Positions 1 to 37,730 of a stretch of DNA of 64,000 nucleotides are shown one piece after another. Source of the stretch: Planctomycetota bacterium (GTDB taxonomy: Bacteria; Planctomycetota; UBA8108; SXIK01); contig CBDCXR010000004.1 in the NCBI GenBank assembly GCA_965223845.1, positions 4,480,001 to 4,544,000 of the forward strand, read 5' to 3'. The notes beneath the pieces are model-generated. The model saw only the letters and a list, made by a program, of their open reading frames with translations. It was not told the origin of the DNA and made no database searches. Positions within the stretch are counted from its first letter, which is position 1. Every line of letters begins with the position of its first letter. A program made the translations under genes and the position numbers.

Positions 1-3000
1 CGCTCGTGAGATCGAAAAGGATGAGCTCGTCGCGCATGGTGGCTGCGAGCGTCTCGTCGGTCGGATGGAACGCCACGCGGGCTTGTGAGGGGGAAAAACG
101 TCCCGCCCCATCGGGCTGAAACTTGTGCTCGAGCGCGAGCGTCGACACCCGGTGCACCTCGACGTTCCTCAGGGAATCGATCGACGCGAGCCAGCGACCG
201 GTCGGGCTGAACGCGATGTCGACGACGAGGCCACGCCCGCCATCTCCCTTCGGAGCTTCGAGCTCGACCCCGGCGGGAAAGTTCCAGCGACGGAGCGAGT
301 AGTCGTTGCTTCCCGAGATCAGAAGAGATCCGTCTCGGGTGAGAGCGAGCGCGCGGACGACTTCGGTGTGCCCCGCGAGGCGCCGGAGTCGCTTCTTTGC
401 CTCGAGGTCCCAAACGGAGATGTCGTTTCCTTCCGCGCAAATGAAACGCCCGCTATCGGGCGCGAAGAGAACCGCGAGGGTCGGTCCCTCGAATCCCGGA
501 AGATCCTCGCGAATCTCCCGCGTGTTCACGTCGACGATCGTGATGGGAGTGTCGTCGTCTCCATGGCCGACGACGAGAGCATCGCCACTCGGAGAAAACG
601 CCAAACAGAACGGTCGCCCAGTGAGCTGGACGAGAGCGTCTTCCCCGGTTCGATCCGTGCTCCAGAGGCGGAGTTCGCCAGTGTCGTGACACGCTGAGGC
701 GAGGAGCTTCCCGTCCGGGCTGAACGAGAGTGCGTTGATGTACTCCGTGTGTCCCTCCAGCTCGTGCGTGATTTCGAGTGCATCGCCCGCCACCGAGCCG
801 AGGACCACGCCGCCGCTTACGCTGCTCGCCGCGAAACGCTCGCCGTCCGGGCTGAGGACGACTCGGCGTAAGCTGCCGATTCCGGGCGAGAGAGTCGACA
901 GCCTCTCGCCCGAGTTCACCTCGTAGCAAACGATGGCTCCGCTCGCCTTCGCGACAAAGATCGCGGAGCCGTCCGCCGTCATGACGACCGAGTTCGAGTC
1001 CGTGCTGTCGTATCGCCGGGTGAGGCCACCGCTATCGACGTCCCAGAGATAGGTCCCCGAGTCCGACACCGTCACGATGCTCTTCTCGTCCGGGGTGAAC
1101 GCGATCCCGATGATCTCTTCGTCGACGCCGGAGAGCGCTCGGAGCCAGAGGGGCGCGACCTGTGTCGATCCTTCTTCGATGAGGTTTCTTGCGGCGCGCC
1201 ATTCCTCGGAATCTGGGCGGAGAAGAACGGGATGCTCGGCCTCGATCTTCTCGTCCGCCTCGGCGCGTCCGTAGCCTTCGAAGCCGATCGCCTTCCCGGC
1301 GAAGAGCCGCGCGGCGAAATGCCGCTTCTCCTCGCGGAGAACGCGCGCGCGCTCGAGCCAGACCGTGCCCTGCTCGTGGCGTGCGAGTTCGGCGAGACGC
1401 GTTGCTTCGTCGCGTGCTTTCTCGGCGTCTCCCTGGGCCTTTTCCGCCGCCGTCGCGTTTTCTTCCGCCAATCGCGCGTTCTCGTCGGCGTTGCGCTTGA
1501 GGCCGAAGGCCCAGATCGCGAGCAAGATGGCGATCACCGCGAGAACGCTGACTCCGGCGCCGAACGCTCGGAGATTGCGCGCAGCCTTGGCTCGACTCTC
1601 GGCGAGCGCGTTCGCCTGGGCGAGCTCGCGTTCTCGCGCGGCTTCCTCCGCGCGCTCTCGAGCGACGGCTTCGGCCTGACTCTCGTCGAGGAAGTCCATC
1701 GTCTCCGTGAACTCGCCGCCGTACTGGTCGGCCCAGGCGGCGTTCGGTTTTTCCGTCTCGCGCCATGCACGGGAAATCTGGAGATCGGGGCCGCGAAAGA
1801 GGCCAGCCTTGCCGGCGATCCAGAGAGCCGCCGTGTCGGCGAGTCGCCGATAGATCCGCGCGGACTGTGCCTCTTCTTCGACCCAGCCGCGGAGGTGAGT
1901 CCAGACGCGCATGAGGCTCTCGTGCGAGAGATCGACGACGCTTCCCGGTTCGAGCGACTGCGCGGCCGCGGGCATGAGGAACGTAACGCCGGGTGCGCGG
2001 TAGGCGTCGACGATCGGGCGGACGTCTCCCTCGGGAACGCCGACGATCGCGGCGAGGTCGCGAAGGCGCGTCGGCCGGCGGATCCCGCGGTGGTCGAGGC
2101 CGCGTTCGGTGAGTGCTTTGAAAATGCGTGCGGCGATGTGTCGATCGGCGTCGCGCGGGAACGCGTCGTAGACCTCGTCGGCGTGGCGCGAGAGCGCTTC
2201 TTCCATTCCGCCGGAAGCTTCGTAGTGCGGAAGGTCAATCTCGTCGGCGTCGACGGTGTCGTCAGCTTCGTTCTGCGCCCGCGAACCGATCGTGCGTTCC
2301 CACTCGTCCCACGTGCGCATGAGCGCGTGCTGAAGAATCGGAAGCTGATCGGGATCGTCTCCGACTGCGTTCAAAAGATGCTGAACGAGGCGATTCGAGA
2401 TCGCCGCGCCGCCGACTCTCACCGGACCTTCGATGGCCGCGCGAAGCTGCGTGCGCTTAAGGCGCGGAATGAGAAACTCGCCCTTGTTGACCGCCTCGGC
2501 GAGGCCTCGCAGACGCGCGCAGTCGCCGAGGTAGTCGGAGCGCATCGTGAGAACGATGTAGATCGGACATGCATCCGAACGAGCCGCCTCGAGGAGCAGG
2601 TTGACGAAGGCTTGCGCCTGGTCGTGGCGGCCGGAGCCGCTGTCGCGGAACCGGAAGATCTCCTCGAACTGGTCGACGATGATCGCGAGCTTGACATCAG
2701 GTTCGAGCTCGGACTGCTGGCAAGCTTCGACGAGGCCGAGGCGGCTGTGCCGGAGGGTGGACGTGACGCGCGGGAGGGACTCGGCGTCGTCCGGGTCGTA
2801 AAGCTCGGCGCGACAGAGCGCTTTCGCGAGGTTGCCGATGGGATCGCCGCCGGGACGAAGGACGGCGATCTCCCAGTTCGAGCCCGCCTGGGTCATCGTG
2901 CCGCCGTGGAGCTCGGGAAGGAGCCCGGCGCGGACGAGCGAAGACTTGCCCGAACCGGACGCACCGACGACGGCGATGAAGCGGTGCTCGCGAAGCCGCG

Positions 3001-3106
3001 TGAGAAGCTCGGCGGACTGGTCTTCGCGTCCGAAGAAGAGGTAGTCTTCGTCGCTCTCGAATGGGCGGAGACCCGGGAAGGGATTCAGTCGTGAGGAATC
3101 GTTCAT
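1..3106 (-). CDS. nSTAND1-type P-loop NTPase + coiled coil + TM helix + WD40 repeats (partial, runs off window start)
   Basis: Absent from the ORF track because it has no stop in the window. Manual translation from ATG 3106 gives [30 protein letters not shown], Walker [10 protein letters not shown], Walker [36 protein letters not shown] and WD repeats such as [20 protein letters not shown] and [35 protein letters not shown] overlap with the upstream kinase stop. Paralog of 15268..21483. Confidence 0.9.
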
Positions 3107-5910
3107 GGCGAGTCCTCCGCATCGTTCGGGGCGGATCGACGTAAGGCTTCGACGAAGGGCGCGAGAACTCTCGGATCAAAAGCGCCTTCCTCGCGGACGA
3201 CCTCGGCGAGGCGCGTGCGGAAACGTTCCTTCCGGCGATCGAACGGCGGAGCGATGTAGACGAGCTGCTGAACGAGCTCGCGCGTGCGGCCGTAACCGGC
3301 GGCTTTGAGGAGTCCGCGAAGCTTGATGTCGACCCAGCCGTGACGCGCGGCGCCATAGAAGATGATCGCGGCGTCGCAGTCGACGAGGTTCTGGCGGTGC
3401 GTCTCGGCGGCTTCGGATTCTTCTGCGTCGAAGTCGGGGAGGCTCACTTCGAAACCCTGATCGAAGAGGAAGTCTTCGATCGGCTCGATCGCTTCGGCGT
3501 CTTTGACGTCGCAGATGAGGTAGACGCGCGCCGGTCCTTTCGCGCGCGAATCGTCGTTTGCGGGCGTCTCGTCGATCGCCCCGGGAGGCGGAGTGAGCTT
3601 TTCGAGAAGGAGCTCTTTCGCCGCCTCGATGTGACTTTCGACGAGCTCGGCGCCGAGGTGTTCGGCCGGATCGCGGCGGATTCGTTCGATCCACTTCTGC
3701 TGACGCGCATCGCGGACTTCGAGGTCGCCCGGAATCCAGATAAGGCGCTCGAGCCCGCGAGCGCGGGACGCCTCGGAGGCGAGGCGGTTCTGCACTTCGA
3801 GAATCGATTCGCTCGAGCCTTCGGGCACGACGCCGTGGAGGCTTCCGACGATGTGGACCGCGTAGTCGGCGCGTTCGAGATAGCTGCTGAGCACCGCTTC
3901 GAGCTCCGAGCTGACGAGCGGAAGCTGCTGGTCGGGGAGGACTCCGTGTCCGCTTGCGAGGAGCTCGCGGCGCATCGCGTCTCGTTCCGAGCTGAGATCG
4001 GATGTCGTCGTCGCGAGGTAAACGAGCTTTCCCGAATCCGGCGCGGCGAGATCGGTGGAGCTCGACGTGCTTTCGCGAAACGCGCGGAGAACCTGACTGA
4101 TTTCGCGCGCGAGATCGTAGACGCGAGCGTGGTAGCGTTCCGTTGCCGCGGCGTCGAAGGAGCCGCCGAGCTCGCGGACGCGTCCGGTCGCCGGGTCGAC
4201 GTCGAAGAACTCGAAGTCGATGAGGGAGCCGAAGAGCTCAGCGAGGCGGACCGGCATCTCGCGTTCGGCGACGGGGTGCTTCACCACCTTGAAAAGGCGC
4301 GACTTCGACTGCGGAGTTTGCTCATCGAGAGCGACGGCGTCCCAGAACGATTCGACGTGACGGCGGCAACCCGTCGACTTCACAAAGGGAGGCGAGAGTA
4401 CCGAGACGAGCGTTTTGACGCGCGGGAGCTGCTCGAGCAGCCCTTCGTCGATCGCGGCGGTCTCGGCCGGACCGGGCAGACGACAGATCTTCACGCGCTC
4501 GCCGGAAATCTGTTCGACGCGAATCTCGAGGTTCCGGTGAAGCTGCGCGATCCAGCCTTCCTTCTCGTTGGCGAGCGGCTGATCGTCGACGCGGGCGTAG
4601 CTGATGAAGACGTCGCTCTCGGTGAGGACTTCGGGCGTGATCGGTGGCGGCATTGCCTCGACCTCGATGGACGCACCGACTGCGGCAGGAAGAGCAGAGG
4701 TTTCGGTCGCGATCGACGCGGTCGCACCCGCGGGTGAGCCGGAAGCCTGGTCGCGCGCGAAGTTCTTGAGGTCGATGAGAAGATCGCGCGCCGATTGATA
4801 CCGTCGCTCGATATCCTTCTCGAGGAGCTTTCGAACGATGCGATCGAGCTCGGGAGGAACCTCGTAATTGAACCGAGCGATCGCGTCGGGCTGCGCGCGA
4901 AGAACCTTGTCGGCAACCTCGGCGTACGTGTCGCCGGCAAAAGGTAGACGAGTCGTGAGAAGCTGAAAGAAGACGCCGCCGAGCGAGAAGAGATCGCTCC
5001 GGTGATCGACGTCGCGACCGAGAACTTGCTCGGGACTCATAAAGGCGGGAGTGCCGAGAATCGTTCCGGGTTTGGTGACGAGGTTCTCCGCGGATTCCTC
5101 GCGACTCCCCGAAGGATCGACGTCGACTCGCTTCGCGAGACCGAAGTCGAGGATCTTCACCTGCCCGCGCTCGCTGAGGCTGATATTCGCGGGTTTGATG
5201 TCGCGGTGGACGATGCCCTTTGCGTGAGCGGCGTCGAGCGCGTCGGCGATTTGCGTCGCGACATCGAGAAACTCGTCGAGCGGGATCGGGCCGTCGGCGA
5301 TGCGCCGATCGAGACTCTGACCTTCGACGAGCTCCATCGCCATGAACGGCCGGCCATCCTCGCTCTCGCCGACCTCGAAGATCATGCAGACGTTCGGATG
5401 GCTGAGCGCCGAGGCGGCGCGGGCTTCGCGAAGGAAACGGCGTCGCTGCTCGGGATCGCCGGCGAGCTCGGCGATGAGGAACTTGAGCGCGACGGGTCGC
5501 TGAAGCCGGGCGTCGACGGCGAGGTAGACTTCGCCCATTCCGCCTCGGCCGAGGAGGCGTTCGAGGCGGTAGTGGGTGGAGGGGGTTGGGGCCGGGGGGT
5601 GGTTCGGGGGAGTAGGGTTCGGCGAGGCGGAGCTCGATGAGCGGGACGTGGGCGCGGACGCGGAGTCTTTAGGATTCGCGGGCGTAGCGTCCGGATCAGC
5701 GTCGGACGGAACGCCGCGGACGAGGGGAGCGGGCCGGGTTCGCTCGGTGTCGTCCGATTCGAAAGACCGGTCGTAGTCGAGGAGGGACTCGACTCGCGAG
5801 CGAACCTCGGGATCCGGGCAGCGTTCGAGTTCGGCCTGCTGCTCGGCGGGGGGTAGGCTCGCAAGCTCCTGGAAGAGAGCTTCGACTTTCTTTCTTTGGT
5901 CGGCGTTCAT
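3103..5910 (-). CDS. Ser/Thr protein kinase fused to TIR + DUF4062-like + third TIR-like domains
   Basis: Intact Hanks motifs [33 protein letters not shown]. Then [11 protein letters not shown] (TIR), [21 protein letters not shown] (DUF4062-like) and [10 protein letters not shown] (third alpha/beta domain). No TM helix seen. Confidence 0.9.
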
Positions 5911-11902: not shown

Positions 11903-12496
11903 ATGGCGTCCATGGAACCGGGCGACCGACAACACGATCCGGCGGATTCTTCGCGACTCTCCCAAACGATCGACGCCGCGACTCGCGGGGATCGTCGAGC
12001 GGCCGGCGAGCTCCTTCCGATCCTCTACGCGGAGCTGCGCGGTCTTGGCCGGGCGCTACTCAGCCGCAAACCGCCTGGTCAGACTTTGCAGGCGACGGCG
12101 CTCGTCCACGAGGCCTACGCGAGACTCGTTGGAACCGCCGACCCAGGCTGGAACGGCCGCGGTCATTTTTTCGGCGCCGCCGCCCGTGCGATGCGCGACA
12201 TCCTGGTGGAGGAGGCACGGCGAAAAGCGTCCCTCAAGAGAGGGGGCGGCCGCCGGAGAGTCGGTGCCGACCCGGACGAATTCGGCATCGAAGCGCCGTG
12301 CGAAGACGTACTCGCGCTCAATGACGCGATGGAGCGCCTCGAGAAAGATGACGCGCTCAAGGGGCGGATCGTCCTCCTCAAGTTCTTCACGGGCCTCTCG
12401 ATGCAGGAGATCGCCGACGATCTCGGTGTTTCGAAGGCGACGGTCGAGAGGGAATGGCGTTTCGCCCGCGCTTGGCTCCATCGAGAGCTCGAGTGA
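11903..12496 (+). CDS. ECF sigma factor, TIGR02999-like (kinase-associated type)
   Basis: AAGELLPILYAELRGL, QTLQATALVHEAY, HFFGAAARAMRDILVE, FFTGLSMQEIA..LGVSKATVEREWRFARAWL. Start is ATG 11903 or 11912. Confidence 0.92.
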   Translation: MASMEPGDRQHDPADSSRLSQTIDAATRGDRRAAGELLPILYAELRGLGRALLSRKPPGQTLQATALVHEAYARLVGTADPGWNGRGHFFGAAARAMRDILVEEARRKASLKRGGGRRRVGADPDEFGIEAPCEDVLALNDAMERLEKDDALKGRIVLLKFFTGLSMQEIADDLGVSKATVEREWRFARAWLHRELE

Positions 12497-12643
12497 ATCC
12501 CCTCGTTCGCCCGCTGTGTGGGCTCCGCCCCCGCGTCTTTTCGCTTTCTTGAGGGGCCCAGCGCCCGGAATTCGGATGGTCTCCGACGCTCTCAACCGTG
12601 GCGGGAATCGCCGCCGACGCAGGGTTCAGCTCGAGCCAAAGTC

Positions 12644-15271
12644 TTGAATCCCGAGATCAAACGAACCAGCCAAGACCTCTTCGACCGCGTTCTGAAGCAG
12701 CCTCCAAACGAACGCCGTTCGTACCTCGCCGCGAACTGCCCCGACGATGAGGTGCGAGCGGAGGTCGAGCGTCTACTCGCGATCGACGTCGAGCTAGGCG
12801 GCACAAAGTCGCTCGAAGCGAGTGACCCCGCTCCGAGCTCGACCGCCGCGACTCAGGAGTACGTGCGCGAGAAAGGCTCGATCATCGCTTCGCACTTCGA
12901 GATCGTCGAGCTCCTCGGTCGAGGAGCGATGGGTGAAGTGTATCTCGCGAGCGACCGTCGTTTGGAACGACGGATCGCCCTCAAGTTTCTAAGCGAGGCG
13001 CACGCTCGAGATCCTCGTCTGCGAGCTCGGTTTTTCGCCGAGGCACGAGCCGCATCGGCGCTCAATCATCCGAACGTTTGCATTCTCCACGAAGTCGGCG
13101 AGCTCGAAGACGGCAGTCCCTTTCTCGCTCTCGAATACCTCGAGGGAGGAGACCTCGAAGCAAGGCTCAGCGAGGGACGGGTGAGCCTTCGGGATGCGCT
13201 CGCCTGGTCGATGCAGCTCGCCGATGCGCTCGACGCCGCCCACTCCGTCGGACTCATTCACCGCGACATCAAGCCGTCGAACCTTCACATCACGCCGCGC
13301 GGACAGCTCAAGATTCTCGACTTCGGCTTGGCGAAACGATTCGAAGGGAAGGCGCTCGCGAGCGATGTTTCACTCCCCGGGTCGATCGTCGGCACACCAC
13401 TCTACATGAGTCCCGAGCAGGCGCTCGGCCATCCGCTCGACGCGCGGAGTGACCTCTTCAGCGCTGGCGTCGTCATGTACGAACTGCTCACGGGAGAGCG
13501 TCCGTTCTCGGGCGATACGTTCGCCGAAGTCGCCGTTCAGCTCGTCCACTTGGATCCAGAACCGGTTTCTCGGCGGAAACCCAAGGTCCCTCGCTCGGTC
13601 GAGCGCATCGTCGAAACCTGCATGGCGAAAAATCCCGAGGAGCGATACCCGTCCGCTCGAGATCTGCTCGTCGATTTGAAGCGCGTCTCGGACGGTGGCG
13701 ACCTGCGCGCTACGCCGTCTGAATTCGTCCCTTCGTTCGTCGACTCGAATGTCGAACAGACAACCGATCTCGGCGTCTCGGCGGATGCGTCGGGAACCGG
13801 CGAACCGCGCGGCGGCGATGTCTTCATCAGCTACGCCGCCGTCGACGATCACGCATTGCCGAACGACGCGCGCGGCTGGATTACCGGCTTTCATCGCAAC
13901 CTCGAAGTGCGCATCGAGCAACTCACCGGAGAACGAGTGCGCATTTGGCGGTCATCACTCGATTCGACCCGGGACGGAGAAGCGAGCGCGGAGGAGCTCG
14001 ATCGCGCGAGGACCGTGGTCTCGGTCGTGTCGCCCCCGTACATAAAGTCTCCGAGCTGCTGGGAGCCGGTCGTCCAGAGTCATGACGAGAGCGAGAACTC
14101 AGACGATTCGGCACGACTCTTCAAGGTCGTCAAGCGACCCGTGCCGGCGGCCGAAATTCCACCGCGCCTCCGTCGCATCTTTGAAGGCATCTCAGGTCAC
14201 GAATTCTTCGACATCGATCCTGCGACCGGCCGCGTACGCGAGTACACGGAGACCGGGGCGCAGACGGTCGCAGAGCGCTACCAGGAGCGCATCTACGATC
14301 TCGCCGAAGAGATTTCTTCGGCTCTCCGAGACGCGCGCGAGTCTCAGATCGCCAGCGCTTCCGAGTCGGGCAACCAGAAAACCGTCTATCTCGCAACGAC
14401 GACTTCGGATCTCCGCTCCGAGCGCGATCGCTTGCGGCGCGAGCTCGTCGCGCGCGGACATCTCGTCTTGCCGGATCGTCCGCTTCCTCTCATCGGCGCG
14501 GAGCTTCTCAGTGCGGTGCGGTTGTCCCTCGAACGGGCCGACTTTTCCGTGCACCCGGTTGGAAGTTATCTCGGAGTCGTTCCCGAAGGACTAGACGAAT
14601 CGGTCGCGGAGCTCGAAAACCGGCTCGCGGCCGAGCGTTCTCGACAAGCCGGGCTCGAGCGATTGATCTGGACTCCGGACGTACGAAAGATCGACGATTC
14701 GCGTCAGGCGAGCTGGGTGGAAAACTTGCGGGCTGATCCCCGGGAGCAGGAAGGTGCCGAGCTCGTCGAAGGAAGTTTCGAGGTTTTCCGCGGCGAGCTC
14801 GTCGATCTACTCACCGGCAAGCGACGTCAAACCGGCGCGGCCGGGAAGTCGACGGGCGCGCCGCCACAACTTTTTCTCCTCTGCGTTCCTGACGACGAGC
14901 GTGCCGTCGAGCCGATCGAGGACTTTTTCTTCGATCGAGGCGTCGAGGTCGTGCTCCCCGCGTTCGCTGACACTGAGCGCGATCAGGGTGAGCTTCACGT
15001 TCGTCGTCTCACCGAATGCGACGCGGTCCTCGTTTACTTCGGTGCCGCTGAGCGTCACTGGGTCGAGTTCATGCTGCGCGACGTCGCGAAGGCGGCCGGT
15101 TATCGAGACCGGGGCGCGATCGAGCATTGCGTCGTGTACGTCGCTCCGCCAATCGACCGTCGAAAAGAGCGGTTCCGGAGCCTCACGGCGGACGTCGTCC
15201 GTGCCGAAGGCGAATTTGATCCGAGCGCTTTGACCGAATTCGCCGAGCGACTCCGGGAGGGGAGGTCATGA
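12644..15271 (+). CDS. Ser/Thr protein kinase fused to TIR + DUF4062-like + third TIR-like domains (paralog of 3103..5910)
   Basis: LGRGAMGEVY, IALK, HRDIKPSN, DFGLAK, MSPEQ; DVFISYAAVDD; [22 protein letters not shown]; QLFLLC. Start TTG 12644 chosen by alignment to the paralog N-terminus; the ORF is open from 12518. Confidence 0.9.
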   Translation: MNPEIKRTSQDLFDRVLKQPPNERRSYLAANCPDDEVRAEVERLLAIDVELGGTKSLEASDPAPSSTAATQEYVREKGSIIASHFEIVELLGRGAMGEVYLASDRRLERRIALKFLSEAHARDPRLRARFFAEARAASALNHPNVCILHEVGELEDGSPFLALEYLEGGDLEARLSEGRVSLRDALAWSMQLADALDAAHSVGLIHRDIKPSNLHITPRGQLKILDFGLAKRFEGKALASDVSLPGSIVGTPLYMSPEQALGHPLDARSDLFSAGVVMYELLTGERPFSGDTFAEVAVQLVHLDPEPVSRRKPKVPRSVERIVETCMAKNPEERYPSARDLLVDLKRVSDGGDLRATPSEFVPSFVDSNVEQTTDLGVSADASGTGEPRGGDVFISYAAVDDHALPNDARGWITGFHRNLEVRIEQLTGERVRIWRSSLDSTRDGEASAEELDRARTVVSVVSPPYIKSPSCWEPVVQSHDESENSDDSARLFKVVKRPVPAAEIPPRLRRIFEGISGHEFFDIDPATGRVREYTETGAQTVAERYQERIYDLAEEISSALRDARESQIASASESGNQKTVYLATTTSDLRSERDRLRRELVARGHLVLPDRPLPLIGAELLSAVRLSLERADFSVHPVGSYLGVVPEGLDESVAELENRLAAERSRQAGLERLIWTPDVRKIDDSRQASWVENLRADPREQEGAELVEGSFEVFRGELVDLLTGKRRQTGAAGKSTGAPPQLFLLCVPDDERAVEPIEDFFFDRGVEVVLPAFADTERDQGELHVRRLTECDAVLVYFGAAERHWVEFMLRDVAKAAGYRDRGAIEHCVVYVAPPIDRRKERFRSLTADVVRAEGEFDPSALTEFAERLREGRS

Positions 15272-18200
15272 CGTCGCGCATGCCGAACCCCTACCCCGGT
15301 CTCCGTCCGTTCGATACGGAAGAAGACTATCTCTTCTTCGGCCGTGAAGAGCAGACGGCCGATCTGCTCGAGCTCCTCCGGTCGAATCGATTTCTCGCCG
15401 TCGTGGGTACGTCCGGGAGTGGCAAGTCTTCCTTGGTGCGCGCCGGCCTCATTCCCGGGCTCGTCAAGGGTTCGCTCGACGGGGCGAACACGCGCTGGGA
15501 GATCGCCGTCGCGCGTCCCGGTGGGAATCCCCTGCGGCGTCTCGCCGCGGGACTCTGCGAAGCCGGCCTCTTCGACTCGAGCGATGTCGAATCCGTTCCA
15601 CGCGTCGTCGCGACGCTCCGAAGGAGCACGCGGGGACTCATCGAAGCCGTTCGTCAATCCGGCCGCGCCGCCGATTCGAAGTTTCTCCTCGTCGTAGATC
15701 AATTCGAGGAGCTCTTTCGCTATGCGAGCGACGACGTAGAGGCTGGCGACGCCAGTCGAGCGTTCGTGAACTTGATTCTCGAAGGGGCGGCTCAAGCCGA
15801 GCTCCCGATCTACGTCGTCGTGACGATGAGATCGGATTACCTCGGCGACTGCGCTCGCATTCCCGGACTCGCCGAAGCGATCAACTCGGGAGAGTACCTC
15901 GTTCCACGCCTCGGGAGAGACCAGGTCCGCCGCGCGATCGAAGGACCGGCGCGAGTCGGAGGAGCCGGAGTTACGAAGCGCTTCGTTCAGCGCCTCCTCG
16001 GCGACCTCGGCGACGATTCGGATCAGCTTCCCGTTCTCCAGCACGCTCTCATGCGAGCGTGGGATGCACGAGGCGACGAAGAAGATCTCGATCTCGATCA
16101 CTACGGCGCGATCGGCGGATTGTCTCACGCGCTCTCTCAACACGCGGACGAAGTCTACGACGGGCTCGCGAGCGACGAACTTCGAAGTACGGCCGAGCGG
16201 ACCTTCAAGACTCTCACCGTGACCGAGAGCGGCGAGCGCGGTGTCCGGCGTCCGACTCGAGTGACTCGACTCGAAGCGGTCACTCGCGCGGAGCGCACAC
16301 AGGTTGAAGCGGTCGTCGAAGCGTTTCGCGCGCCCGGCGTCTCGTTCTTGATGCCCGGAGAAGCCACCCCGCTCGCCGACGACCCCGTGATCGACATCTC
16401 GCACGAGAGTCTGATGCGCGTTTGGACGCGGCTCCGGACGTGGGTCGGCGAGGAAGCGCAGTCCGCCGCGATCTACCGCCGCCTCTCGGAATCCGCTGCG
16501 CTTTGGCGAGAGGATCGTGCGGGGCTCTACCGTCACCCCGATCTCGAGGTCGCGCAGTCGTGGCGCCGGGAAGCGCGACCGAATCCGAGCTGGGCGAGTC
16601 TCTACGCACCCGGCTACGAAAATGCGATCGCGTTTCTGACGGAGAGCCAGGAGAACGCCGACGCGGAAGAGCTCGAGCGTGAACGAGCCCGAGAGCGCGA
16701 GCTCGCGCAGGCTCGTGAGCTCGCCGAAACGAAGTCGCGCGAAGCTGAAGCCGTCGCCCGGACCGCGCGCAACTTTCGGCGCTTCGCGATCGGACTTGCC
16801 GTGCTCGCCGTCGCCACGCTGGCGCTCGCGATCCAGGCACTACTCCTTTGGCGCGACGCCGAGGAGAGCCGGAAGCTCGTCTCCGAGAGCGAAGAGACGG
16901 CACGCCACGAACAGGGTGTCGCTTGGTTCGAGCAGGCGCAGCGACTTCGCGCGGAGGAGAGGCACTTCGCGGCCGAGCTCCTCGCGGCTCGGACCTTGGG
17001 CTTCGAAGGCGTCGACACGATCGAGGACGAACTGGGCGGAACCGGCGACCAGCGCATCGACCGATCGCTCCTCAGGCCCGACAGCGAGGAGGCGGATTCC
17101 GTCCGTGCGTTCTTGTCTGCGTCGATGCTCGACGAACCACTCTATCGCAGCCCACAAGTAGCGCCCCCGAATGCGCGATGCGTTTGCTGGACGCCCGATG
17201 GCAAGCTGGTTGTCGGAACCACGAGCGGCAGGGTCGCTCTCTACGATCCGGAAAGAGGAGAACGCGAAGGAGAGTTCGCCGCGCACGACACCGAGGTTTC
17301 GTTTGTCGGGCCGACGTCCGATGGGAGCGCGGTCGTCACGACAACGGTCCGAGCGGATACGATTCGCTGCCACGACCTCTCGACGGGGAACGAACGATGG
17401 AGTGTCGCCGGTCGCGGCCGGAGCTCCCACGCCGCGCTCTCGTCCGACCGATCCTTGCTCGTTGTCGCCGGATCGACCGGGGTAGTTCGAGTAGACACAA
17501 CGAATGGCGCCGTTTTGGGCGAGTCCGACGGTGGCGCCACAGGAGTCGCATTCTCTCCCGATGGTGAGCGTTACGCGGCACTCCACTCGGACGGCTGGCT
17601 CCGCGTCCGGACGCGCGAAGGGACCCTCGTCGCTTCGGCCATTCATGGCGCGGGAGTCACTCGTGGACTGGCGTTCTCTCCGGACGGCCGGCGGATCATC
17701 ACCGGAGCGCTCAATTCGTCTGCGACCATCGAGCCCGCCAAAGTTTGGGAGGTCTCGAACGACGGAGAGTTGCGGGTCGTCGACGAGTGGGACGTTCCGC
17801 ACAGCGAAGCTCGATCATCCAGTTGGTTCGGACTGAGCCGAATCGTTGCCGCGCGACCGTCGGGTGAAGACGTCGCCGTGTTCGGGGGGTCGGGCGGTCG
17901 ACTACAAATTCGTCGCATCGCCGATGGCACGCCCGTCGGCGTACTCGACGCTCACGGCCGGCTCATCGTCGACCTCGCCGTCGATCCGACCGGCCGGCGT
18001 CTCATTTCGGTAGCTCCCGGTGAGCCGATGCGACTCTGGGACTTGGTGGAGCTCCGCGAAATTTCGAAGCTCGGCGACGTCGAGATCGCTCGGTCGGTCG
18101 ATCACACGCGGGACGGTCGATTCGTCGCCTCGGCCCATGCGAACGGCGAGATCCGAGTGCTGCATTCGCGAACGGGTGCGGTCATCGCCAACCATCGCAC

Positions 18201-21200
18201 CGATGTCGCGCTCGATCTCATCCGTTTCTCCCCCGACGGCACTCGGCTCGCCGCGGGCGGTCGACGAGGGATTCGCGTTTTCGACGTGACGGACTCGATC
18301 CTGACTCAGCCCGATCCTCTGCCTGGTGAGACGGTCTCGCCCGCCGAGTTTAGCGAGCGCGCGCGGATCGAAGGGCTTCGGTTCGCCTGGAGTCCCGACG
18401 GAGATAAACTCGCCTACAACGGAACGTCGTTCGGCGTCTTTATCTGGGACGCGGAGAGTGGAGTGTCACGTCTCGTCGTCGACAGCAGTTCGGGGCGCTA
18501 CGTCGGCCTCGCGTTCACTCCGGATGGCAAGCAGCTCGTCGTCTCGTCGCTCGCGAAGACGGAGCTCTTCGAGATCGGGGGAACGAAGACGGCCGAGTGG
18601 GCCGAGATCGGCTCAAACGCGGGCCTCGTCTTCCAACCGGGTGGGGATCTCATCGCCAGCGTCGCTCGAGATCATCTGGCGATCTGGCGCCGTGCCGATC
18701 CACCCGTTGTCGTGGGGCGTCTCGACCATTCGGGAGCCGAGTATGACACGCGGCTAGAGTTCTCTCCGGACGGCCGATTCCTCGCGGTATCGGGTGGCGA
18801 CCGACTCGTGCGCGTCTACGATGTCCACCGTTTGACTCTGCTCGCGCTCCTCGAGGGTCACGCGGGAAACACACTCGACGCGAGCTTCGCGCCGGACGGA
18901 CGCACACTCGCTACGACGAGTCTCGACAATACGGTGCGCTACTGGAAACTCGGACACCACGTCGACCGAGACAGTCTCGTCGTCGGGGGAGTTCGCCATC
19001 GGAAGATCCAGTTCCTCGACGACAGCACGCTCGTCGCGTTCGGCGCGGAGAGCAAGGTCGCGATCGTCGATCGAAGGCTCGGGACGGTTCGCCGCGTCCT
19101 CGACGGCGCGCCCTATCAATCCGGAATTCGCTGCGCCGCTGGACCGGCAACCGAGTTCGGCGGACCGTTCATTTCGCTTAGTGCGCAAAGCCATACCGCT
19201 CTCTGGGATGTCGCGAGCGGTGAAATGATTCGGCGTTTCGCGAACGACTCGTCGTACAACACTCGCGCGACATTCGGACCGGAGAGCCGATGGCTTGCTG
19301 TGCTCCGCGGGCCGCGCCTCGATCACTTCGACATCTCGACTCGCCGGTTACGGAAGATCGGGAGCGGCGTCGATCTCGTCGACATCGCGGCGACCTCGGC
19401 GGGCGAGCTTCTCGCGCTCGGGATCGACGGAAGGGTTCGCGTCATCGATCCCACGACTGGAGAGGAGCGCGAGGTTTTCGGTTCTGTCTTAAGTGAGACG
19501 TCTCGAAACGTCGCCCATTCGCCTCGGGAATTCCATCTCTCGCGCGACGGCAGCACGCTCGCGATCCAGTTGCCGAGGTCCGTGTCGATTCTGAACATGA
19601 GGGAGAAGCGCGAAACGGCACGCTTCGACGTCGTCGGCCCCGGCGCGCAATTCTTCGATCTGGCGATCAACGAGGACGGCAGTCGATTGGCGGTGTGCGG
19701 TGGAGGGGTCGCGCGTCTCTGGTCTTCGTCGGGCGAGAAGATCCGTGAATACTCGCGGCCCGACTTCGACGACGATTTCGTACCGTACGGAGTGGATTTC
19801 AGCCCGGACGGGCGCTGGCTGGCCGGCGACAGCTTCGGCTCGACGATCGCACTTTGGTGGGTCGAGCCCGAGGAGCGGCGTCGTGACCGGCTCTCGCACC
19901 TACTCGAGAACTTTGCGCTCGACGGTCGGCGGATCGTGCCGCAGACGGTCTCGAAGGTGCTCTACGCCGATCCTCCTGTCAGGTCGCGCGCGCCCGAGCG
20001 CGATCCGGTCGCCGAAATGGAAAACCTCGTGCTCGCGGGTGGATTCGACGCCGCGGTGTCAGGAACGTCGCGCCTGTCGCCCGAGCTCCGCTCCCGGATC
20101 TCGCCGGCCATCGCTGACGCGATCTTTCATCGAGCGGGGGTTCTCAGTCGAAACGGGAGGACGGACGAAGTCGTCCGGATCGTGAGCGAGGCGCAGGAGC
20201 TCGTCGGGAACGAGAGCGAACAGTGGTATCTCCTCGAACAGCGCACGGCGGAAGCGATTTGCCGGGGCGGTCGGCTCGCGGAGGGGATCGATCGCTTCGA
20301 CGACGCCATCGGTCGAGCGATGGGAGCCGGGCTCGATTCGATCGCGCGACGTCTCGCGCGCGCGAGTGTTTCGGTACTCCTTGATCTGGAAGACGTCGAC
20401 GGCGCGAAAGATGCGTTCGAGAAGCTGCTCGCCCTGCCGAACTTCGTAGACGAAGGCCGGCGGGCAAACGAGATTCAAAGACACGCGCGCCTCGTCGTCC
20501 GCCAGGCGACGCGGGATTCAGAGACAGAGAGCACGAAGACCGATCGCGCGCTCGCGGCCGTCTTTGTCGACGTCGCGCTCGAAGCCGCGCGTCAGACGCC
20601 CCGGCTCGATACGTTGCCCGAGCTCTCAACGCTCGTCGAGCGAGCAAACGCCGGCCGAGAGCCCGTCGAGCTCGTATCCTCGAGCTCCTCGTGGAGAGTG
20701 TCGCCGGTAGATACGACGGTGGGCGCAGATTGGAACGCCTCCACCTTCGACGACAGTGCCTGGCCCAGCGTAAATCCGCCGATCTTGTTCTCGACTACGT
20801 CCGAACGCCCCGAGCTTCGCTCACCCGAAACGACACTCTTCGCCAGGGGCCGCTTTCAGGTTTCGCCCGGTGGATTGCCAGAGGGCTACGGACTCGCGAT
20901 CCAAAGCAAGTGTCTACCGGGCGCGAGAGTCTTCCTGAACGGCGTCGAGCTATTTCGGCACGGACTACCGGAGGGTGAGATCGATGCGACAACTCGCGCT
21001 CTCGACGGTGCGCACGGCCATGCGTGGCCACGGCGCGCGGACGCGCGACTCGCGGAGCCGCTACGTAAGGGGGAGAACGTCGTCGCGATCGAGTTGCATC
21101 GCAATGATGGCAGCGCATTGTTCTCGCTCGAGGTCGTCGCGCGCGTTACGCCGGCGTCGTATCTCGCGGCGGCGGACCGGAGTCGGGCTCTTGAGGTCGT

Positions 21201-21483
21201 CAGCGACGTTTTTCCGGCGAGCGTTCTCGAGCGGTTGGGGCCGCGGTTGCGTTTCGTTTTTGCTGACGACCCCGGCTCGCTAGGCGATGCGGGAGATGCG
21301 GGAGATGCGCAGGCGTGGCTCGAGCGGGCTCGGGTTCAGCGTGTGCTCGGGCGAAGTGAGCGGGCGCGGGGGGCGTATTCGCAGGCGGTGGAGGCGGCGG
21401 TTGTGGAGGGGGATGCGGATACGGAAGCGATCGCGCGAGGGGAGATGGAGGCGCTCGGGCTTCGGTTGCCGAAGAGTCCTTGA
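15268..21483 (+). CDS. nSTAND1 NTPase + coiled coil + TM + multi-propeller WD40 + helical/TPR-like region + beta-sandwich domain (2071 aa)
   Basis: NPYPGLRPF...FFGRE, Walker A GTSGSGKSS, Walker B LLVVDQFEELF, DQLPVLQHAL, ISHESL; TM FAIGLAVLAVATLALAIQALLLW; many FSPDG/GH..WD repeats; C-terminal W..FDDSAW...VFLNGVE...GENVVAIELH domain. ATGA overlap with the kinase stop. Confidence 0.92.
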   Translation: MTSRMPNPYPGLRPFDTEEDYLFFGREEQTADLLELLRSNRFLAVVGTSGSGKSSLVRAGLIPGLVKGSLDGANTRWEIAVARPGGNPLRRLAAGLCEAGLFDSSDVESVPRVVATLRRSTRGLIEAVRQSGRAADSKFLLVVDQFEELFRYASDDVEAGDASRAFVNLILEGAAQAELPIYVVVTMRSDYLGDCARIPGLAEAINSGEYLVPRLGRDQVRRAIEGPARVGGAGVTKRFVQRLLGDLGDDSDQLPVLQHALMRAWDARGDEEDLDLDHYGAIGGLSHALSQHADEVYDGLASDELRSTAERTFKTLTVTESGERGVRRPTRVTRLEAVTRAERTQVEAVVEAFRAPGVSFLMPGEATPLADDPVIDISHESLMRVWTRLRTWVGEEAQSAAIYRRLSESAALWREDRAGLYRHPDLEVAQSWRREARPNPSWASLYAPGYENAIAFLTESQENADAEELERERARERELAQARELAETKSREAEAVARTARNFRRFAIGLAVLAVATLALAIQALLLWRDAEESRKLVSESEETARHEQGVAWFEQAQRLRAEERHFAAELLAARTLGFEGVDTIEDELGGTGDQRIDRSLLRPDSEEADSVRAFLSASMLDEPLYRSPQVAPPNARCVCWTPDGKLVVGTTSGRVALYDPERGEREGEFAAHDTEVSFVGPTSDGSAVVTTTVRADTIRCHDLSTGNERWSVAGRGRSSHAALSSDRSLLVVAGSTGVVRVDTTNGAVLGESDGGATGVAFSPDGERYAALHSDGWLRVRTREGTLVASAIHGAGVTRGLAFSPDGRRIITGALNSSATIEPAKVWEVSNDGELRVVDEWDVPHSEARSSSWFGLSRIVAARPSGEDVAVFGGSGGRLQIRRIADGTPVGVLDAHGRLIVDLAVDPTGRRLISVAPGEPMRLWDLVELREISKLGDVEIARSVDHTRDGRFVASAHANGEIRVLHSRTGAVIANHRTDVALDLIRFSPDGTRLAAGGRRGIRVFDVTDSILTQPDPLPGETVSPAEFSERARIEGLRFAWSPDGDKLAYNGTSFGVFIWDAESGVSRLVVDSSSGRYVGLAFTPDGKQLVVSSLAKTELFEIGGTKTAEWAEIGSNAGLVFQPGGDLIASVARDHLAIWRRADPPVVVGRLDHSGAEYDTRLEFSPDGRFLAVSGGDRLVRVYDVHRLTLLALLEGHAGNTLDASFAPDGRTLATTSLDNTVRYWKLGHHVDRDSLVVGGVRHRKIQFLDDSTLVAFGAESKVAIVDRRLGTVRRVLDGAPYQSGIRCAAGPATEFGGPFISLSAQSHTALWDVASGEMIRRFANDSSYNTRATFGPESRWLAVLRGPRLDHFDISTRRLRKIGSGVDLVDIAATSAGELLALGIDGRVRVIDPTTGEEREVFGSVLSETSRNVAHSPREFHLSRDGSTLAIQLPRSVSILNMREKRETARFDVVGPGAQFFDLAINEDGSRLAVCGGGVARLWSSSGEKIREYSRPDFDDDFVPYGVDFSPDGRWLAGDSFGSTIALWWVEPEERRRDRLSHLLENFALDGRRIVPQTVSKVLYADPPVRSRAPERDPVAEMENLVLAGGFDAAVSGTSRLSPELRSRISPAIADAIFHRAGVLSRNGRTDEVVRIVSEAQELVGNESEQWYLLEQRTAEAICRGGRLAEGIDRFDDAIGRAMGAGLDSIARRLARASVSVLLDLEDVDGAKDAFEKLLALPNFVDEGRRANEIQRHARLVVRQATRDSETESTKTDRALAAVFVDVALEAARQTPRLDTLPELSTLVERANAGREPVELVSSSSSWRVSPVDTTVGADWNASTFDDSAWPSVNPPILFSTTSERPELRSPETTLFARGRFQVSPGGLPEGYGLAIQSKCLPGARVFLNGVELFRHGLPEGEIDATTRALDGAHGHAWPRRADARLAEPLRKGENVVAIELHRNDGSALFSLEVVARVTPASYLAAADRSRALEVVSDVFPASVLERLGPRLRFVFADDPGSLGDAGDAGDAQAWLERARVQRVLGRSERARGAYSQAVEAAVVEGDADTEAIARGEMEALGLRLPKSP

Positions 21484-35591: not shown

Positions 35592-35652
35592 CGAAATTCC
35601 TCTCGCAATGAGACTCGCGCCCATGAAAATCGCGTCCGTCGCGGGCGACCGC

Positions 35653-37422: not shown

Positions 37423-37523
37423 AGCTCCCTCTCCCAGTCTCTGAATTCGCGCGGGGCAGATCCGTACACACTCGTTCCGGCTGCAGCACCCGGAAATCCC
37501 GTCCCGCGGCATCGAGAGGCGAG

Positions 37524-37565: not shown

Positions 37566-37730
37566 TGACGTTCCCGCACGAATTCGCCGGTTTTCCCCGT
37601 CTGAAACGCGTCGATTCTGCTGCGGATCCGGGCGGGCGCCGGTTCGCCAGCTCGGAATGCTGTAAAGTGATCTTTACTCCTCTTGCCGCCCGTAGAGTCC
37701 CGGCGGTTCCATATCAGAGCAGTTCTCAGC

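What the first reader, a model, noticed from the sequence alone, without database searches (positions are those of the whole stretch)
11903..21483. ECF sigma + kinase-TIR-TIR-TIR + nSTAND1-TM-WD40: candidate Toll/NLR-like transmembrane signalling relay
Seen: three co-oriented genes, the last two coupled by an ATGA overlap. The kinase has intact catalytic motifs, no TM helix and three TIR/DUF4062-like domains. The partner has a STAND NTPase, a coiled coil, one TM helix (about 16783-16851) and roughly 1500 aa of WD40 and other domains beyond it. Established: TIGR02999-type ECFs sit next to Ser/Thr kinases that usually carry their own sensor domains; some ECFs are activated by Thr phosphorylation (Vibrio EcfP/PknT); nSTAND1-beta-propeller proteins and TIR domains occur in bacterial conflict systems. 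Inference: the sensor has been outsourced to a membrane-spanning NLR-like receptor, which would oligomerise, recruit the kinase through the TIR modules and activate the sigma factor. That logic parallels animal TLR-MyD88-IRAK signalling, with a transcriptional rather than suicidal output. I do not know of this combination being described.
Basis: partly seen in the sequence, partly recalled or inferred. Interest (0 to 1): 0.88.

Follow-up and report, generated by a model that had tools for sequence, protein, structure and literature searches.

The report
Membrane STAND sensor with TIR-kinase partner
A membrane-spanning NLR-like ATPase and a soluble kinase carrying three TIR-like domains form a strictly conserved gene pair, and this copy appears rewired to switch on a sigma factor rather than to destroy NAD.

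Summary
Window 11903-21483 (+) encodes three genes:
- a TIGR02999-type ECF sigma;
- a soluble Hanks kinase with three C-terminal TIR-like domains, here called TIR3 (D1 TIR_2, D2 DUF4062-like, D3 TIR/NDT-like by fold);
- an nSTAND1 NTPase with one TM helix and about 1540 aa of WD40 and other sequence. Its ATG overlaps the kinase stop (ATGA).

The core is the TIR3 + nSTAND1-TM gene pair:
- nSTAND1 directly follows TIR3 in 109 of 109 public loci with downstream DNA, and in all 3 copies in this genome. One of those is a second pair in this window.
- Three natural fusions exist.
- A co-fold gave weak support (0.59 against controls of 0.00).

The part in front of TIR3 varies: nothing, kinase, cyclase, trypsin-like, CHAT, or an extra TIR. 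The canonical TIR Glu in D1 is kept in 83 of 84 stand-alone forms but in only 76 of 130 kinase fusions. This copy has Pro there.

The ECF link is a minority feature: 4 loci including this one, plus 2 through an intermediate kinase. This kinase does carry an N-terminal motif that marks ECF-partner kinases in this genome (12 of 15 ORFs).

Best reading (0.5): a periplasm-sensing STAND clusters the kinase, which activates the sigma. The main rival is a conflict or defence system.

The parts
11903..12496 (+). ECF sigma factor of the TIGR02999 / PF07638 type (an alternative TTG start lies at 11876). QATA sits at residues 72-75 of the ORF that starts at 11876.
12644..15271 (+). Soluble Ser/Thr kinase with a triple TIR-like C-terminal module (875 aa from the TTG at 12644; the ORF is open from the GTG at 12518).
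12644..12793 (+). N-terminal helix motif (DLF..L..P..ER..YL...C.DD..R.EVE.LL) that marks ECF-partner kinases in this genome.
12896..13648 (+). Hanks-type kinase domain (residues 127-377 of P0002).
13805..14368 (+). D1: TIR_2-like domain. The canonical catalytic Glu position holds Pro in this copy.
14369..14839 (+). D2: DUF4062 (NIR)-like domain.
14852..15268 (+). D3: TIR/NDT-like flavodoxin-fold domain with no catalytic Glu at the TIR position. It is absent from 2 of the 3 natural TIR3-nSTAND1 fusions.
15268..21483 (+). nSTAND1 NTPase, coiled region, single TM helix, then WD40 propellers and an unassigned C-terminus (2071 aa). Its start overlaps the kinase stop (ATGA), with GGAGG upstream.
15289..16515 (+). 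nSTAND1 NTPase domain (residues 8-416). Walker A GTSGSGKSS and Walker B-like VVDQFEE are invariant in 32 relatives.
16771..16860 (+). Single transmembrane helix (residues 502-531), with positive charge on the N-terminal side.
17155..19857 (+). WD40 beta-propeller region, predicted to be extracytoplasmic.
19858..21480 (+). Unassigned C-terminal region. The only leads are weak TPR hits.
3103..5910 (-). Second kinase-TIR3 gene (paralogue A, P0012, 935 aa; 49% identical in TIR3). It has the same N-terminal motif.
1..3106 (-). Second nSTAND1-TM gene (paralogue A, 2251 aa). Its start overlaps the stop of paralogue A's kinase by 4 nt, and it runs off the window start to genome position 4476351.

Best explanation
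The unit is a two-gene signalling machine. One gene encodes a single-pass membrane STAND NTPase (nSTAND1) with its NTPase in the cytoplasm and WD40 propellers outside. The other is a translationally coupled partner whose triple TIR-like module (TIR3) docks on the NTPase.

Proposed sequence of events (inferred):
1. A ligand binds outside the membrane.
2. NTP-dependent oligomerisation of the STAND follows.
3. The partner proteins are brought together.

In the ancestral stand-alone form the clustered D1 TIR domains would be the effector. In this window's variant a Hanks kinase sits in front of TIR3 and D1 has lost the canonical Glu. The kinase also carries the N-terminal motif of ECF-partner kinases. 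The adjacent TIGR02999 sigma lacks acidic sigma-2.2 residues and has a Thr there (QATA). The output is therefore most likely proximity-induced kinase activation, then phosphorylation of the sigma, then transcription.

Shown here: the domain make-up, the conservation of the pair, the fusions, the conservation of the TM helix, and the motif/ECF association. Inferred: binding, the direction of signalling, the sigma as substrate, and the nature of the cue.
For: Pair conservation:
- nSTAND1 follows TIR3 in 37 of 37 genome loci (3 more are cut by contig ends).
- It does so in 72 of 72 metagenome loci (8 more are cut).
- It does so in 3 of 3 copies in this genome, each with a 4-nt overlap.

Fusions: L033 (kinase-D1-D2-nSTAND1), P0124 (D1-D2-nSTAND1-TM-WD40) and P0236 (TIR3-nSTAND1).

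Co-fold: ipSAE 0.59, 0.57 and 0.60; best of 3 controls 0.00; verdict 'weak support'. Partner pLDDT was at least 78 and the runs agreed in at least 90% of contacts. The mark was reached by 58 of 80 solved complexes and 2 of 110 mismatched pairs, but scores of 0.60 or under came from only 7 of those 80 and from both mismatches.

Topology:
- Exactly one TM helix lies 430-600 aa after the NTPase start in 28 of 28 genome loci and 42 of 42 metagenome loci that have at least 600 aa of open frame.
- Charge flanks imply N-in.
- One relative carries a murein-endopeptidase (Peptidase_M74) hit after the TM helix.

Output shift: D1 Glu is present in 83 of 84 stand-alone forms and 76 of 130 kinase fusions. 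The window has Pro.

ECF link:
- A motif HMM built only from TIR3-family N-termini finds 15 ORFs in this genome, 12 of them within 1 kb of a TIGR02999-like ECF.
- 10 of 11 other such kinases have their own TM helix. The TIR3 kinases have none.
- An ECF lies directly upstream in L016, L023 and L090 as well.
- ECF, motif-kinase, kinase-TIR3 and nSTAND1 form co-oriented clusters in L010 and L011.
- QATA in the sigma, against the ECF43 consensus QTTA (passages of PMC13147305; PMC8999054).
Against: - The ECF is next to only 1 of the 3 pairs in this genome.
- It is directly upstream in only 2 of 26 kinase-fused genome loci and 1 of 14 kinase-fused metagenome loci that have enough upstream DNA.
- L016 has an ECF upstream but did not match the motif HMM at E<=0.01.
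- Family-wide features look like a conflict system. The effectors in front of TIR3 are variable (cyclase, trypsin-like, CHAT, an extra TIR). Occurrence is patchy: 1 of 41 relatives and 3 of 401 genomes of the phylum sample, own genome included.
- D2 of this copy has Glu at both candidate catalytic positions, so an enzymatic role cannot be excluded.
- The co-fold support is weak, and TIR-NTPase arrangements exist among solved structures, so the score may partly reflect likeness.
- No expression data exist.
- A weak terminator-like hairpin lies between the ECF and the kinase (12516-12536), although the scan found 11 sites against 7.5 +/- 2.3 in shuffles.
Confidence: 0.5

Rival explanations
1. 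It is a conflict or defence system like the rest of the family. STAND activation unleashes the partner as a toxic effector, through NAD+ cleavage by a TIR-like domain or broad phosphorylation by the kinase. This causes dormancy or death. The neighbouring ECF is a remnant of the kinase's ancestry or a coincidence.
For: - TIR3 is fused to typical conflict effectors: trypsin-like, CHAT, an extra canonical TIR, cyclase.
- Stand-alone forms keep the TIR Glu in 83 of 84 cases.
- DUF4062 domains are NADases in phage defence (passages of 10.64898/2026.05.01.722283 and 10.64898/2026.09.04.749371).
- Occurrence is patchy, with spread across Planctomycetota, Verrucomicrobiota, Acidobacteriota and one Aromatoleum.
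- There are several paralogues per genome.
- D2 of this copy has Glu at the candidate positions.
- The kinase domain matches PD-T4-6 and mad6 models, though those are generic kinase-domain hits.
Against: - The sensor lies beyond a TM helix, whereas the Avs-type STAND sensors described in the passages read (PMC13581612) detect phage proteins inside the cell.
- P0003 and P0001 match nothing in PADLOC.
- The flanking genes are metabolic, not defence genes.
- D1 of this copy lacks the canonical Glu, and 54 of 130 kinase fusions lack it too.
- The N-terminal motif is tied to ECF neighbours in 12 of 15 ORFs in this genome.
Confidence: 0.3
2. The kinase-TIR3/nSTAND1 pair is a membrane signalling unit, but the adjacent ECF is not its target. 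The kinase phosphorylates other substrates, or the STAND protein itself. The sigma is served by another kinase or is constitutively active.
For: - Most kinase-fused pairs have no ECF nearby.
- Paralogues A and C have the motif but no ECF within 1 kb.
- A 147-nt gap with a weak hairpin separates the ECF from the kinase.
Against: - The motif/ECF association.
- The ECF-kinase-TIR3-nSTAND1 order recurs in four unrelated records.
- No other kinase gene lies next to this ECF in the window.
Confidence: 0.15
3. Signalling runs the other way. The sigma and kinase control the STAND protein, which is an output device acting on the envelope rather than a sensor.
For: The gene order, sigma first and STAND last, would allow sigma-driven expression of the pair. 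One relative has a murein-endopeptidase-like part after the TM helix.
Against: STAND NTPases with C-terminal repeats act as sensors and switches in the characterised cases I recall (Apaf-1, Avs, NLRs). The post-TM parts are variable repeats, as sensors are: WD40 in 5 of 8 loci, TPR in 2 of 8. Most pairs have no sigma at all.
Confidence: 0.05

Closest known systems
ECF43-type sigma with a Hanks kinase (EcfP/PknT of Vibrio parahaemolyticus; EcfK/PknS of Xanthomonas citri)
   Same: A sigma without an anti-sigma sits next to a Ser/Thr kinase. The sigma-2.2 region lacks the acidic motif and carries a Thr (QATA here; QTTA is the ECF43 consensus). Source: passages of PMC13147305 and PMC8999054.
   Different: PknS is described there as a transmembrane receptor kinase. 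This kinase is soluble and ends in three TIR-like domains, and the membrane sensor is a separate STAND NTPase. The ECF group of this sigma was not determined.
TIR-NB-LRR plant receptors, and the DUF4062-NACHT-WD40 proteins (TEP1, NWD1) or DUF4062-Avs2
   Same: A TIR-like domain sits N-terminal to a STAND NTPase that is followed by repeats. Oligomerisation is thought to activate the TIR-like domain (passages of the two 2026 preprints). The fusions L033, P0124 and P0236 recreate that order.
   Different: Here the TIR part is a separate polypeptide with three different TIR-like domains. The NTPase is nSTAND1, not NACHT or NB-ARC. A TM helix separates the NTPase from the repeats. In this copy the D1 Glu is lost and a kinase has been added.
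NTP-dependent conflict systems with effector-associated domains (Kaur et al. 2020 and 2021), which include the nSTAND1 proteins
   Same: A STAND NTPase of the nSTAND1 clade, swappable effectors (TIR, kinase, trypsin, caspase-like), and preference for complex bacteria (passages of PMC8195603).
   Different: In those systems the same adaptor domain sits on both the NTPase and the effectors. Here the NTPase starts at residue 8 of the protein with no N-terminal adaptor, so any docking would be heterotypic. In the passages I read, the nSTAND1 proteins were described with FGS/lectin sensors, not with a TM helix plus WD40, nor with a TIR3 partner.
Animal TLR - MyD88 - IRAK signalling
   Same: The logic only: an outside sensor, a membrane span, TIR-fold adaptor domains, a kinase, then a transcription factor. 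MAL, MyD88 and TLR TIR structures are among the fold matches.
   Different: There is no homology of the receptor ectodomain or of the death domains. An NTPase switch is interposed. The resemblance is functional analogy, not membership.
PknB-type receptor kinases
   Same: An N-terminal cytoplasmic catalytic part, one TM helix, and a large extracytoplasmic sensor. This is the topology predicted for the nSTAND1 protein and found in 10 of 11 other ECF-partner kinases in this genome.
   Different: In this system the membrane protein carries an NTPase, not the kinase.

Membership tests
TIGR02999 / PF07638 ECF sigma (kinase-associated, ECF43-like) | Scores above the curated cut-off of the family model | tested here: met
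   TIGR02999 186.2 bits against a cut-off of 126.15; PF07638 184.1 bits against 21.1
TIGR02999 / PF07638 ECF sigma (kinase-associated, ECF43-like) | Sigma-2.2 lacks the acidic DAED-type motif and has a Thr at the phospho-site (QTTA consensus) | tested here: met
   QATA at residues 72-75. The motif definition comes from passages of PMC13147305 and PMC8999054.
TIGR02999 / PF07638 ECF sigma (kinase-associated, ECF43-like) | Assignment to group ECF43 by the ECF classification | not tested
   No ECF group models were available. Other kinase-linked groups exist: ECF59-62, ECF217, ECF267 and ECF283 (passages of PMC7826278).
TIGR02999 / PF07638 ECF sigma (kinase-associated, ECF43-like) | Activated through phosphorylation by the neighbouring kinase | not testable with these tools
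   Requires biochemistry.
Hanks-type Ser/Thr kinase | Pkinase domain above the cut-off, with catalytic Lys, HRD, DFG and APE-like motifs | tested here: met
   160.5 bits against a cut-off of 31.7. IALK, HRDIKPSN, DFGLAK and SPE are in the translation.
TIR domain (D1) | Sequence match to TIR_2 or TIR | tested here: inconclusive
   Window copy 19.8 bits, below the cut-off of 28. 17 of 30 relatives match TIR_2 at E<=0.01, best 1e-11. The profile hits TLR6, L6 and TLR1 TIR chains at E 0.007-0.02.
TIR domain (D1) | TIR fold | tested here: met
   Foldseek probability 1.00 to MAL, MyD88, TLR1, SARM1, RUN1 and SPARTA TIRs, with target-normalised TM-scores (TMt) up to 0.64. The query was the whole three-domain model, and the output does not say which domain matched.
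TIR domain (D1) | Catalytic Glu of the (W)C..E motif, as in enzymatic TIRs | tested here: not met
   The position aligned to the Glu of L6 'CLMEL' is Pro in the window, and Glu in 55 of 97 aligned relatives. That this Glu is the catalytic one in plant TIRs is recalled.
DUF4062 / NIR TIR-like NADase (D2) | Sequence match to PF13271 | tested here: inconclusive
   Window copy E=0.05 at 14.2 bits, below the cut-off of 24.7. 29 of 30 relatives match at E<=0.01. The best PDB hit of the D2 profile is KpSwz DUF4062, at E=0.038.
DUF4062 / NIR TIR-like NADase (D2) | Conserved catalytic Glu after the 'SYT' region | tested here: inconclusive
   Counting from the invariant Ser: position +3 is Ala in 73 of 97 relatives and Glu in 21 of 97; position +5 is Gln in 94 of 97. 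The window has Glu at both. The alignment to KpSwz stops before that region, so the equivalent residue is not fixed.
nSTAND1 (PF20703) STAND NTPase | Family model above the cut-off, with an intact P-loop and Walker B | tested here: met
   338.6 bits against a cut-off of 27.1. GSGKS and DQFEE are invariant in 32 sequences.
Known anti-phage systems (PADLOC-DB 2.0) | The STAND or sigma component matches a defence-system model | tested here: not met
   P0003 and P0001 match 0 families. P0002 matches only through its kinase domain.
EAD-type NTP-dependent conflict systems (Kaur et al.) | Swappable effector domains on a constant adaptor | tested here: met
   Kinase, cyclase, Trypsin_2, CHAT, an extra TIR_2, LRR, and ParA-like domains occur in front of TIR3.
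EAD-type NTP-dependent conflict systems (Kaur et al.) | The same adaptor domain is also fused to the N-terminus of the NTPase (homotypic pairing) | tested here: not met
   The nSTAND1 match starts at residue 8 of the protein, so there is no N-terminal domain. The principle is taken from passages of PMC8195603.

The most novel reading that the evidence does not exclude
This is a bacterial counterpart of Toll-like signalling that arose from an NADase immune module. A transmembrane NLR-like NTPase senses something outside the cell through its propellers. It assembles a soluble partner through a now non-catalytic TIR-like scaffold, and so switches on a kinase that activates an ECF sigma by phosphorylation. 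On this reading the family records the step from a suicidal TIR effector to a transcriptional output.
Probability: 0.35. Interest if true: 0.9.

Novelty: new variant of a known kind. Interest (0 to 1): 0.72.

Why it matters
STAND/NLR proteins in bacteria are known as cytoplasmic sensors of phage proteins with built-in killing domains. Three things differ here:
- The STAND NTPase is split from its TIR part.
- It is anchored in the membrane, with its repeats on the far side.
- It is paired with one constant triple-TIR-like module that carries interchangeable outputs.

The contrast in the D1 Glu (83 of 84 stand-alone forms, 76 of 130 kinase fusions) gives a testable case of a TIR enzyme turning into a scaffold. 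The same question is open for animal TLR and MyD88 TIR domains.

The ECF-linked subset would add a new input route to sigma factors that are activated by phosphorylation.

The family is large, with 1618 representative clusters at E<=1e-30. I found no description of it in the papers I could search.

Tried and rejected
- Mutual profile comparison of D1, D2 and D3 (hhalign) gave no significant match (probabilities under 1%). The three domains are therefore not recognisable repeats of one another by sequence.
- A single-sequence PDB search with the window's D2 gave only chance hits. L029's D2 hit KpSwz at E=0.02, but the alignment again stopped before the catalytic region. The D2 catalytic residue stays unassigned.
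- The ESM Atlas search of the last 532 aa gave only TPR leads at scores up to 0.81, below the level that means anything.
- The promoter scan found 0 sigma-70-like sites. The terminator-like sites numbered 11 against 7.5 +/- 2.3 in shuffles, so they are not informative.
- Sequencing runs: no RNA holder is listed. Four DNA-type runs from one study hold the stretch.
- I considered that D3 is the docking domain because L033 and P0124 lack it. A third fusion, P0236, keeps it, so this remains only a lead.
- I considered that the ECF is a general third component. The counts reject that.
- Literature. Searches for 'nSTAND1' (6 papers hold the term), 'DUF4062' (15 papers) and 'ECF43' plus 'kinase' (7 papers), and a six-term search (STAND NTPase, TIR, kinase, transmembrane, WD40, sigma factor; 14 papers with at least 5 terms). 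I read passages only. None of those passages describes a TIR3 + nSTAND1-TM pair. The domain-architecture tables of Kaur et al. and of the 2026 STAND and DUF4062 papers could list it.


Full report
**1. What is there**

The region holds three co-oriented ORFs.

The first (11876/11903-12496) is an ECF sigma. It scores 186.2 bits on TIGR02999 (cut-off 126.15) and E=3.2e-54 on PF07638.

The second is open from 12518 to 15271. The 875-aa gene call on record (P0004) and the N-termini of its closest relatives put the start at the TTG at 12644. It has a Pkinase domain at residues 127-377 (E=6.8e-47). The catalytic Lys, HRD, DFG and SPE motifs are visible in the translation. It has no hydrophobic segment.

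The third (15268-21483, 2071 aa) starts with an ATG that overlaps the kinase's TGA, with GGAGG just upstream. It has:
- an nSTAND1 NTPase at residues 8-416 (E=9.5e-101);
- a charged helical stretch;
- one strongly hydrophobic segment at residues 502-531, with +4 charge before it and -3 after it;
- WD40 hits from about residue 630 to 1530;
- about 530 unassigned residues.

The flanking genes are unrelated: a redoxin/Cu-monooxygenase-like protein and a rhamnogalacturonan lyase.

**2. The C-terminal half of the kinase**

I call the 488-aa C-terminal part TIR3. An AlphaFold2 model built on 97 sequences (pLDDT 87.8, pTM 0.46) shows three separate five-fold beta/alpha domains: D1 at 1-188, D2 at 189-345 and D3 at 350-488.

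Foldseek on the whole model returns TIR domains at probability 1.00 (MAL, MyD88, TLR1, SNC1, SARM1, RUN1, SPARTA), with target-normalised TM-scores up to 0.64.

Domain by domain:
- D1 matches Pfam TIR_2 in 17 of 30 relatives at E<=0.01 (best 1e-11). The window copy scores E about 1e-3, below the cut-off.
- D2 matches DUF4062 in 29 of 30 relatives (best 7.5e-9). The window copy scores E=0.05. The best PDB hit of the D2 profile is the DUF4062 protein KpSwz, at a weak E=0.038.
- D3 has only marginal TIR_2 matches, in 10 of 30 relatives at E<=0.1. Modelled alone (pLDDT 93.1, pTM 0.88), its best fold matches are a 'cryptic TIR', DNPH1, MilB, TIR-STING, SPARTA TIR and the RRS1 TIR (TM 0.68). CheY-like receivers also appear in the list.

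'Three TIR-like domains' is therefore fair. D3 is TIR/NDT-like by fold only, and the three domains are not detectable repeats of one another.

**3. The conserved unit is the pair, not the trio**

The genome holding the window has three TIR3 genes. Each is followed by an nSTAND1 gene with a 4-nt overlap. They are this pair, a second pair on the minus strand of the same window (3103-5910 and 1-3106, running off the window start), and a third at C4:1867619-1877121.

In 40 loci from species-representative genomes, nSTAND1 follows TIR3 in all 37 that have downstream DNA. The other three are cut by contig ends. In 80 metagenome loci it follows in 72 of 72, with eight cut.

Three natural fusions join the two proteins:
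- L033 is one 2354-aa frame: kinase-D1-D2-nSTAND1.
- P0124 is D1-D2-nSTAND1-TM-WD40.
- P0236 is D1-D2-D3-nSTAND1.

A co-fold of TIR3 with nSTAND1 residues 1-500 scored ipSAE 0.59, 0.57 and 0.60 against 0.00 for the best of three controls. The tool's verdict was 'weak support'. The partner's pLDDT was at least 78 and the runs agreed in at least 90% of contacts. The mark was reached by 58 of 80 solved complexes and 2 of 110 mismatches, but scores of 0.60 or under came from only 7 of those 80 and from both mismatches. With a high prior from synteny and fusions I take the co-fold as mild corroboration. Solved TIR-NTPase assemblies may also contribute to the score.

**4. The membrane topology is conserved**

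Some loci have at least 600 residues of open frame after the NTPase start. In every one of them, exactly one strongly hydrophobic segment lies 430-600 residues in. This holds for 28 of 28 genome loci and 42 of 42 metagenome loci.

The parts after the TM helix vary. In eight loci examined they are WD40 in five, TPR in two (one of those also with a murein-endopeptidase-like Peptidase_M74 hit), and coiled-coil only in one. The full proteins range from about 985 to more than 3400 aa.

The NTPase needs cytoplasmic NTP and its partner has no signal peptide or TM helix. The repeats should therefore face the periplasm. This is inferred, not shown.

**5. The family is much wider than kinase fusions**

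A profile of TIR3 finds 5818 representative proteins at E<=1e-3, of which 1618 are at E<=1e-30.

I pooled 267 proteins that matched the module. They divide as follows:
- 130 carry a kinase;
- 84 are stand-alone (about 500 aa);
- 25 have another N-terminal part;
- 1 has a C-terminal extension;
- 27 are partial and were left out of the residue counts.

The ten proteins I scanned show these parts besides TIR3. One each carries LRR, Trypsin_2, a ParA-like domain, an adenylate/guanylate cyclase, CHAT, or a strong extra TIR_2. One carries nSTAND1 C-terminal to TIR3 (P0236). Three show nothing further. Cyclase also appears.

This is the effector repertoire that the passages of Kaur et al. list for NTP-dependent conflict systems.

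The module is patchy. It was found in 1 of 41 genomes (the window's own plus 40 relatives) and in 3 of 401 genomes of the phylum sample (own genome included). It nevertheless occurs in records labelled Planctomycetota, Verrucomicrobiota, Acidobacteriota and Aromatoleum.

The genome itself has no ftsZ match (at 92% completeness) and 51 PSD1 matches. From my own knowledge this fits Planctomycetota.

**6. Catalytic residues**

The D1 profile aligns 'C-r-r-E' with 'C-L-M-E' of the flax L6 TIR. From recall, that Glu is the catalytic one of plant TIRs.

| Class | Glu at this position |
|---|---|
| Stand-alone proteins | 83 of 84 |
| Proteins with another N-terminal part | 20 of 25 |
| Kinase fusions | 76 of 130 |

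The window copy has Pro at this position.

The sets come from two searches and their members are related, so these are not independent events. The contrast is still large. It fits a shift of the output from the TIR to the kinase.

For D2, the region after the invariant Ser is where the DUF4062 papers place a catalytic Glu, in an 'acidic-SYT region' (passage of 10.64898/2026.06.25.731849). Position +3 is Ala in 73 of 97 relatives and Glu in 21 of 97. Position +5 is Gln in 94 of 97. The window has Glu at both. I could not fix the equivalent residue, so D2 activity in this copy is open.

D3 has Lys where a TIR would have the Glu, in 83 of 97 relatives.

**7. The ECF link**

A directly upstream, co-oriented TIGR02999-like ECF is present at:
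- this locus;
- 2 of 26 kinase-fused genome loci with at least 1.4 kb of upstream DNA (L016, L023);
- 1 of 14 kinase-fused metagenome loci with at least 700 nt of upstream DNA (L090, where the ECF is read in two frames).

In L010 and L011 an ECF and a separate kinase sit immediately upstream of the kinase-TIR3 gene, all co-oriented. The trio therefore recurs but is a minority.

The window's kinase has a 50-aa N-terminal motif. An HMM of this motif, built only from TIR3-family proteins, finds 15 ORFs in this genome. Twelve of them lie within 1 kb of a TIGR02999-like ECF. The three exceptions are the two other kinase-TIR3 paralogues and one further ORF.

Ten of the eleven other ECF-adjacent motif ORFs have a TM helix after the kinase domain. 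The three kinase-TIR3 proteins have none.

In a FastTree of the module, rooted at the midpoint, 12 of the 13 leaves of the window's clade carry the motif (support 0.944), against 5 of the other 84 leaves.

The sigma has QATA where ECF43 sigmas have QTTA, with the phospho-Thr in place of an acidic motif (passages of PMC13147305 and PMC8999054).

**8. Reading**

Shown here: the pair is one unit, the TM topology is conserved, and the outputs are modular.

Most likely for this copy (0.5): an outside cue causes STAND oligomerisation, which clusters TIR3-kinase, which activates the kinase, which phosphorylates the ECF, which changes transcription.

The main rival (0.3) is that this copy still acts as a conflict system, with the kinase or D2 as a toxic effector and the ECF as bystander. 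Two further rivals are given in their own section.

**9. Novelty**

The parts are known kinds: nSTAND1, TIR, DUF4062, Hanks kinase, and a kinase-linked ECF. I found none of the following in any passage of the papers retrieved by my four searches:
- the constant triple TIR-like module as the obligate, separately encoded partner of a single-pass membrane nSTAND1;
- its swappable outputs;
- the ECF-coupled kinase variant.

Supplementary tables could not be read. I file this as a new variant of a known kind.

Noticed in passing
window 37683-42503 (+): A 1606-aa protein combines an AAA_16 STAND-like ATPase (residues 281-430), TPR repeats, and a C-terminal sigma-54 activator domain (PF00158, E=1.3e-61). 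It is another large NTPase-plus-repeat regulator with a transcriptional output in the same window.
   Followed up: no
L010:5647-12900 and L011:4081-13323: These are four-gene co-oriented clusters: TIGR02999-like ECF, a kinase with the N-terminal ECF-partner motif, kinase-TIR3, then nSTAND1. They hint at a two-kinase relay in relatives where the motif is not on the TIR3 kinase itself.
   Followed up: partly
L034:5640-6815: In an Acidobacteriota-labelled relative, the part of the nSTAND1 protein after the TM helix has TPR repeats and a Peptidase_M74 (murein endopeptidase) hit at E=4.2e-8. This fits a periplasmic location.
   Followed up: no
P0182 (660 aa), P0152, P0266: These are TIR3 proteins with a strong extra canonical TIR_2 (E=8.4e-41), a CHAT domain, or a trypsin-like domain in front of the module. 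They are classical conflict-system effectors.
   Followed up: partly
window 12516-12536 (+): A weak terminator-like hairpin with a T-rich tail lies between the ECF stop and the kinase start. The scan as a whole was not above shuffled background.
   Followed up: no
window 47204-49576 (-), 49815-52316 (-), 33831-37512 (-): A 790-aa serpin-domain protein, a CotH kinase-like protein with a lamin-tail domain, and two dockerin-containing proteins lie downstream. They appear unrelated to the finding.
   Followed up: no
genome C4:1870279-1877121 (paralogue C of the nSTAND1 protein): It has a second strongly hydrophobic segment near residue 1785, in addition to the conserved one at 497. The other two paralogues have only one.
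   Followed up: no
genome C4:6048720-6049454: A fourth, weak nSTAND1-like hit (E=5e-11, 27% identity) has no TIR3 hit nearby.
   Followed up: no
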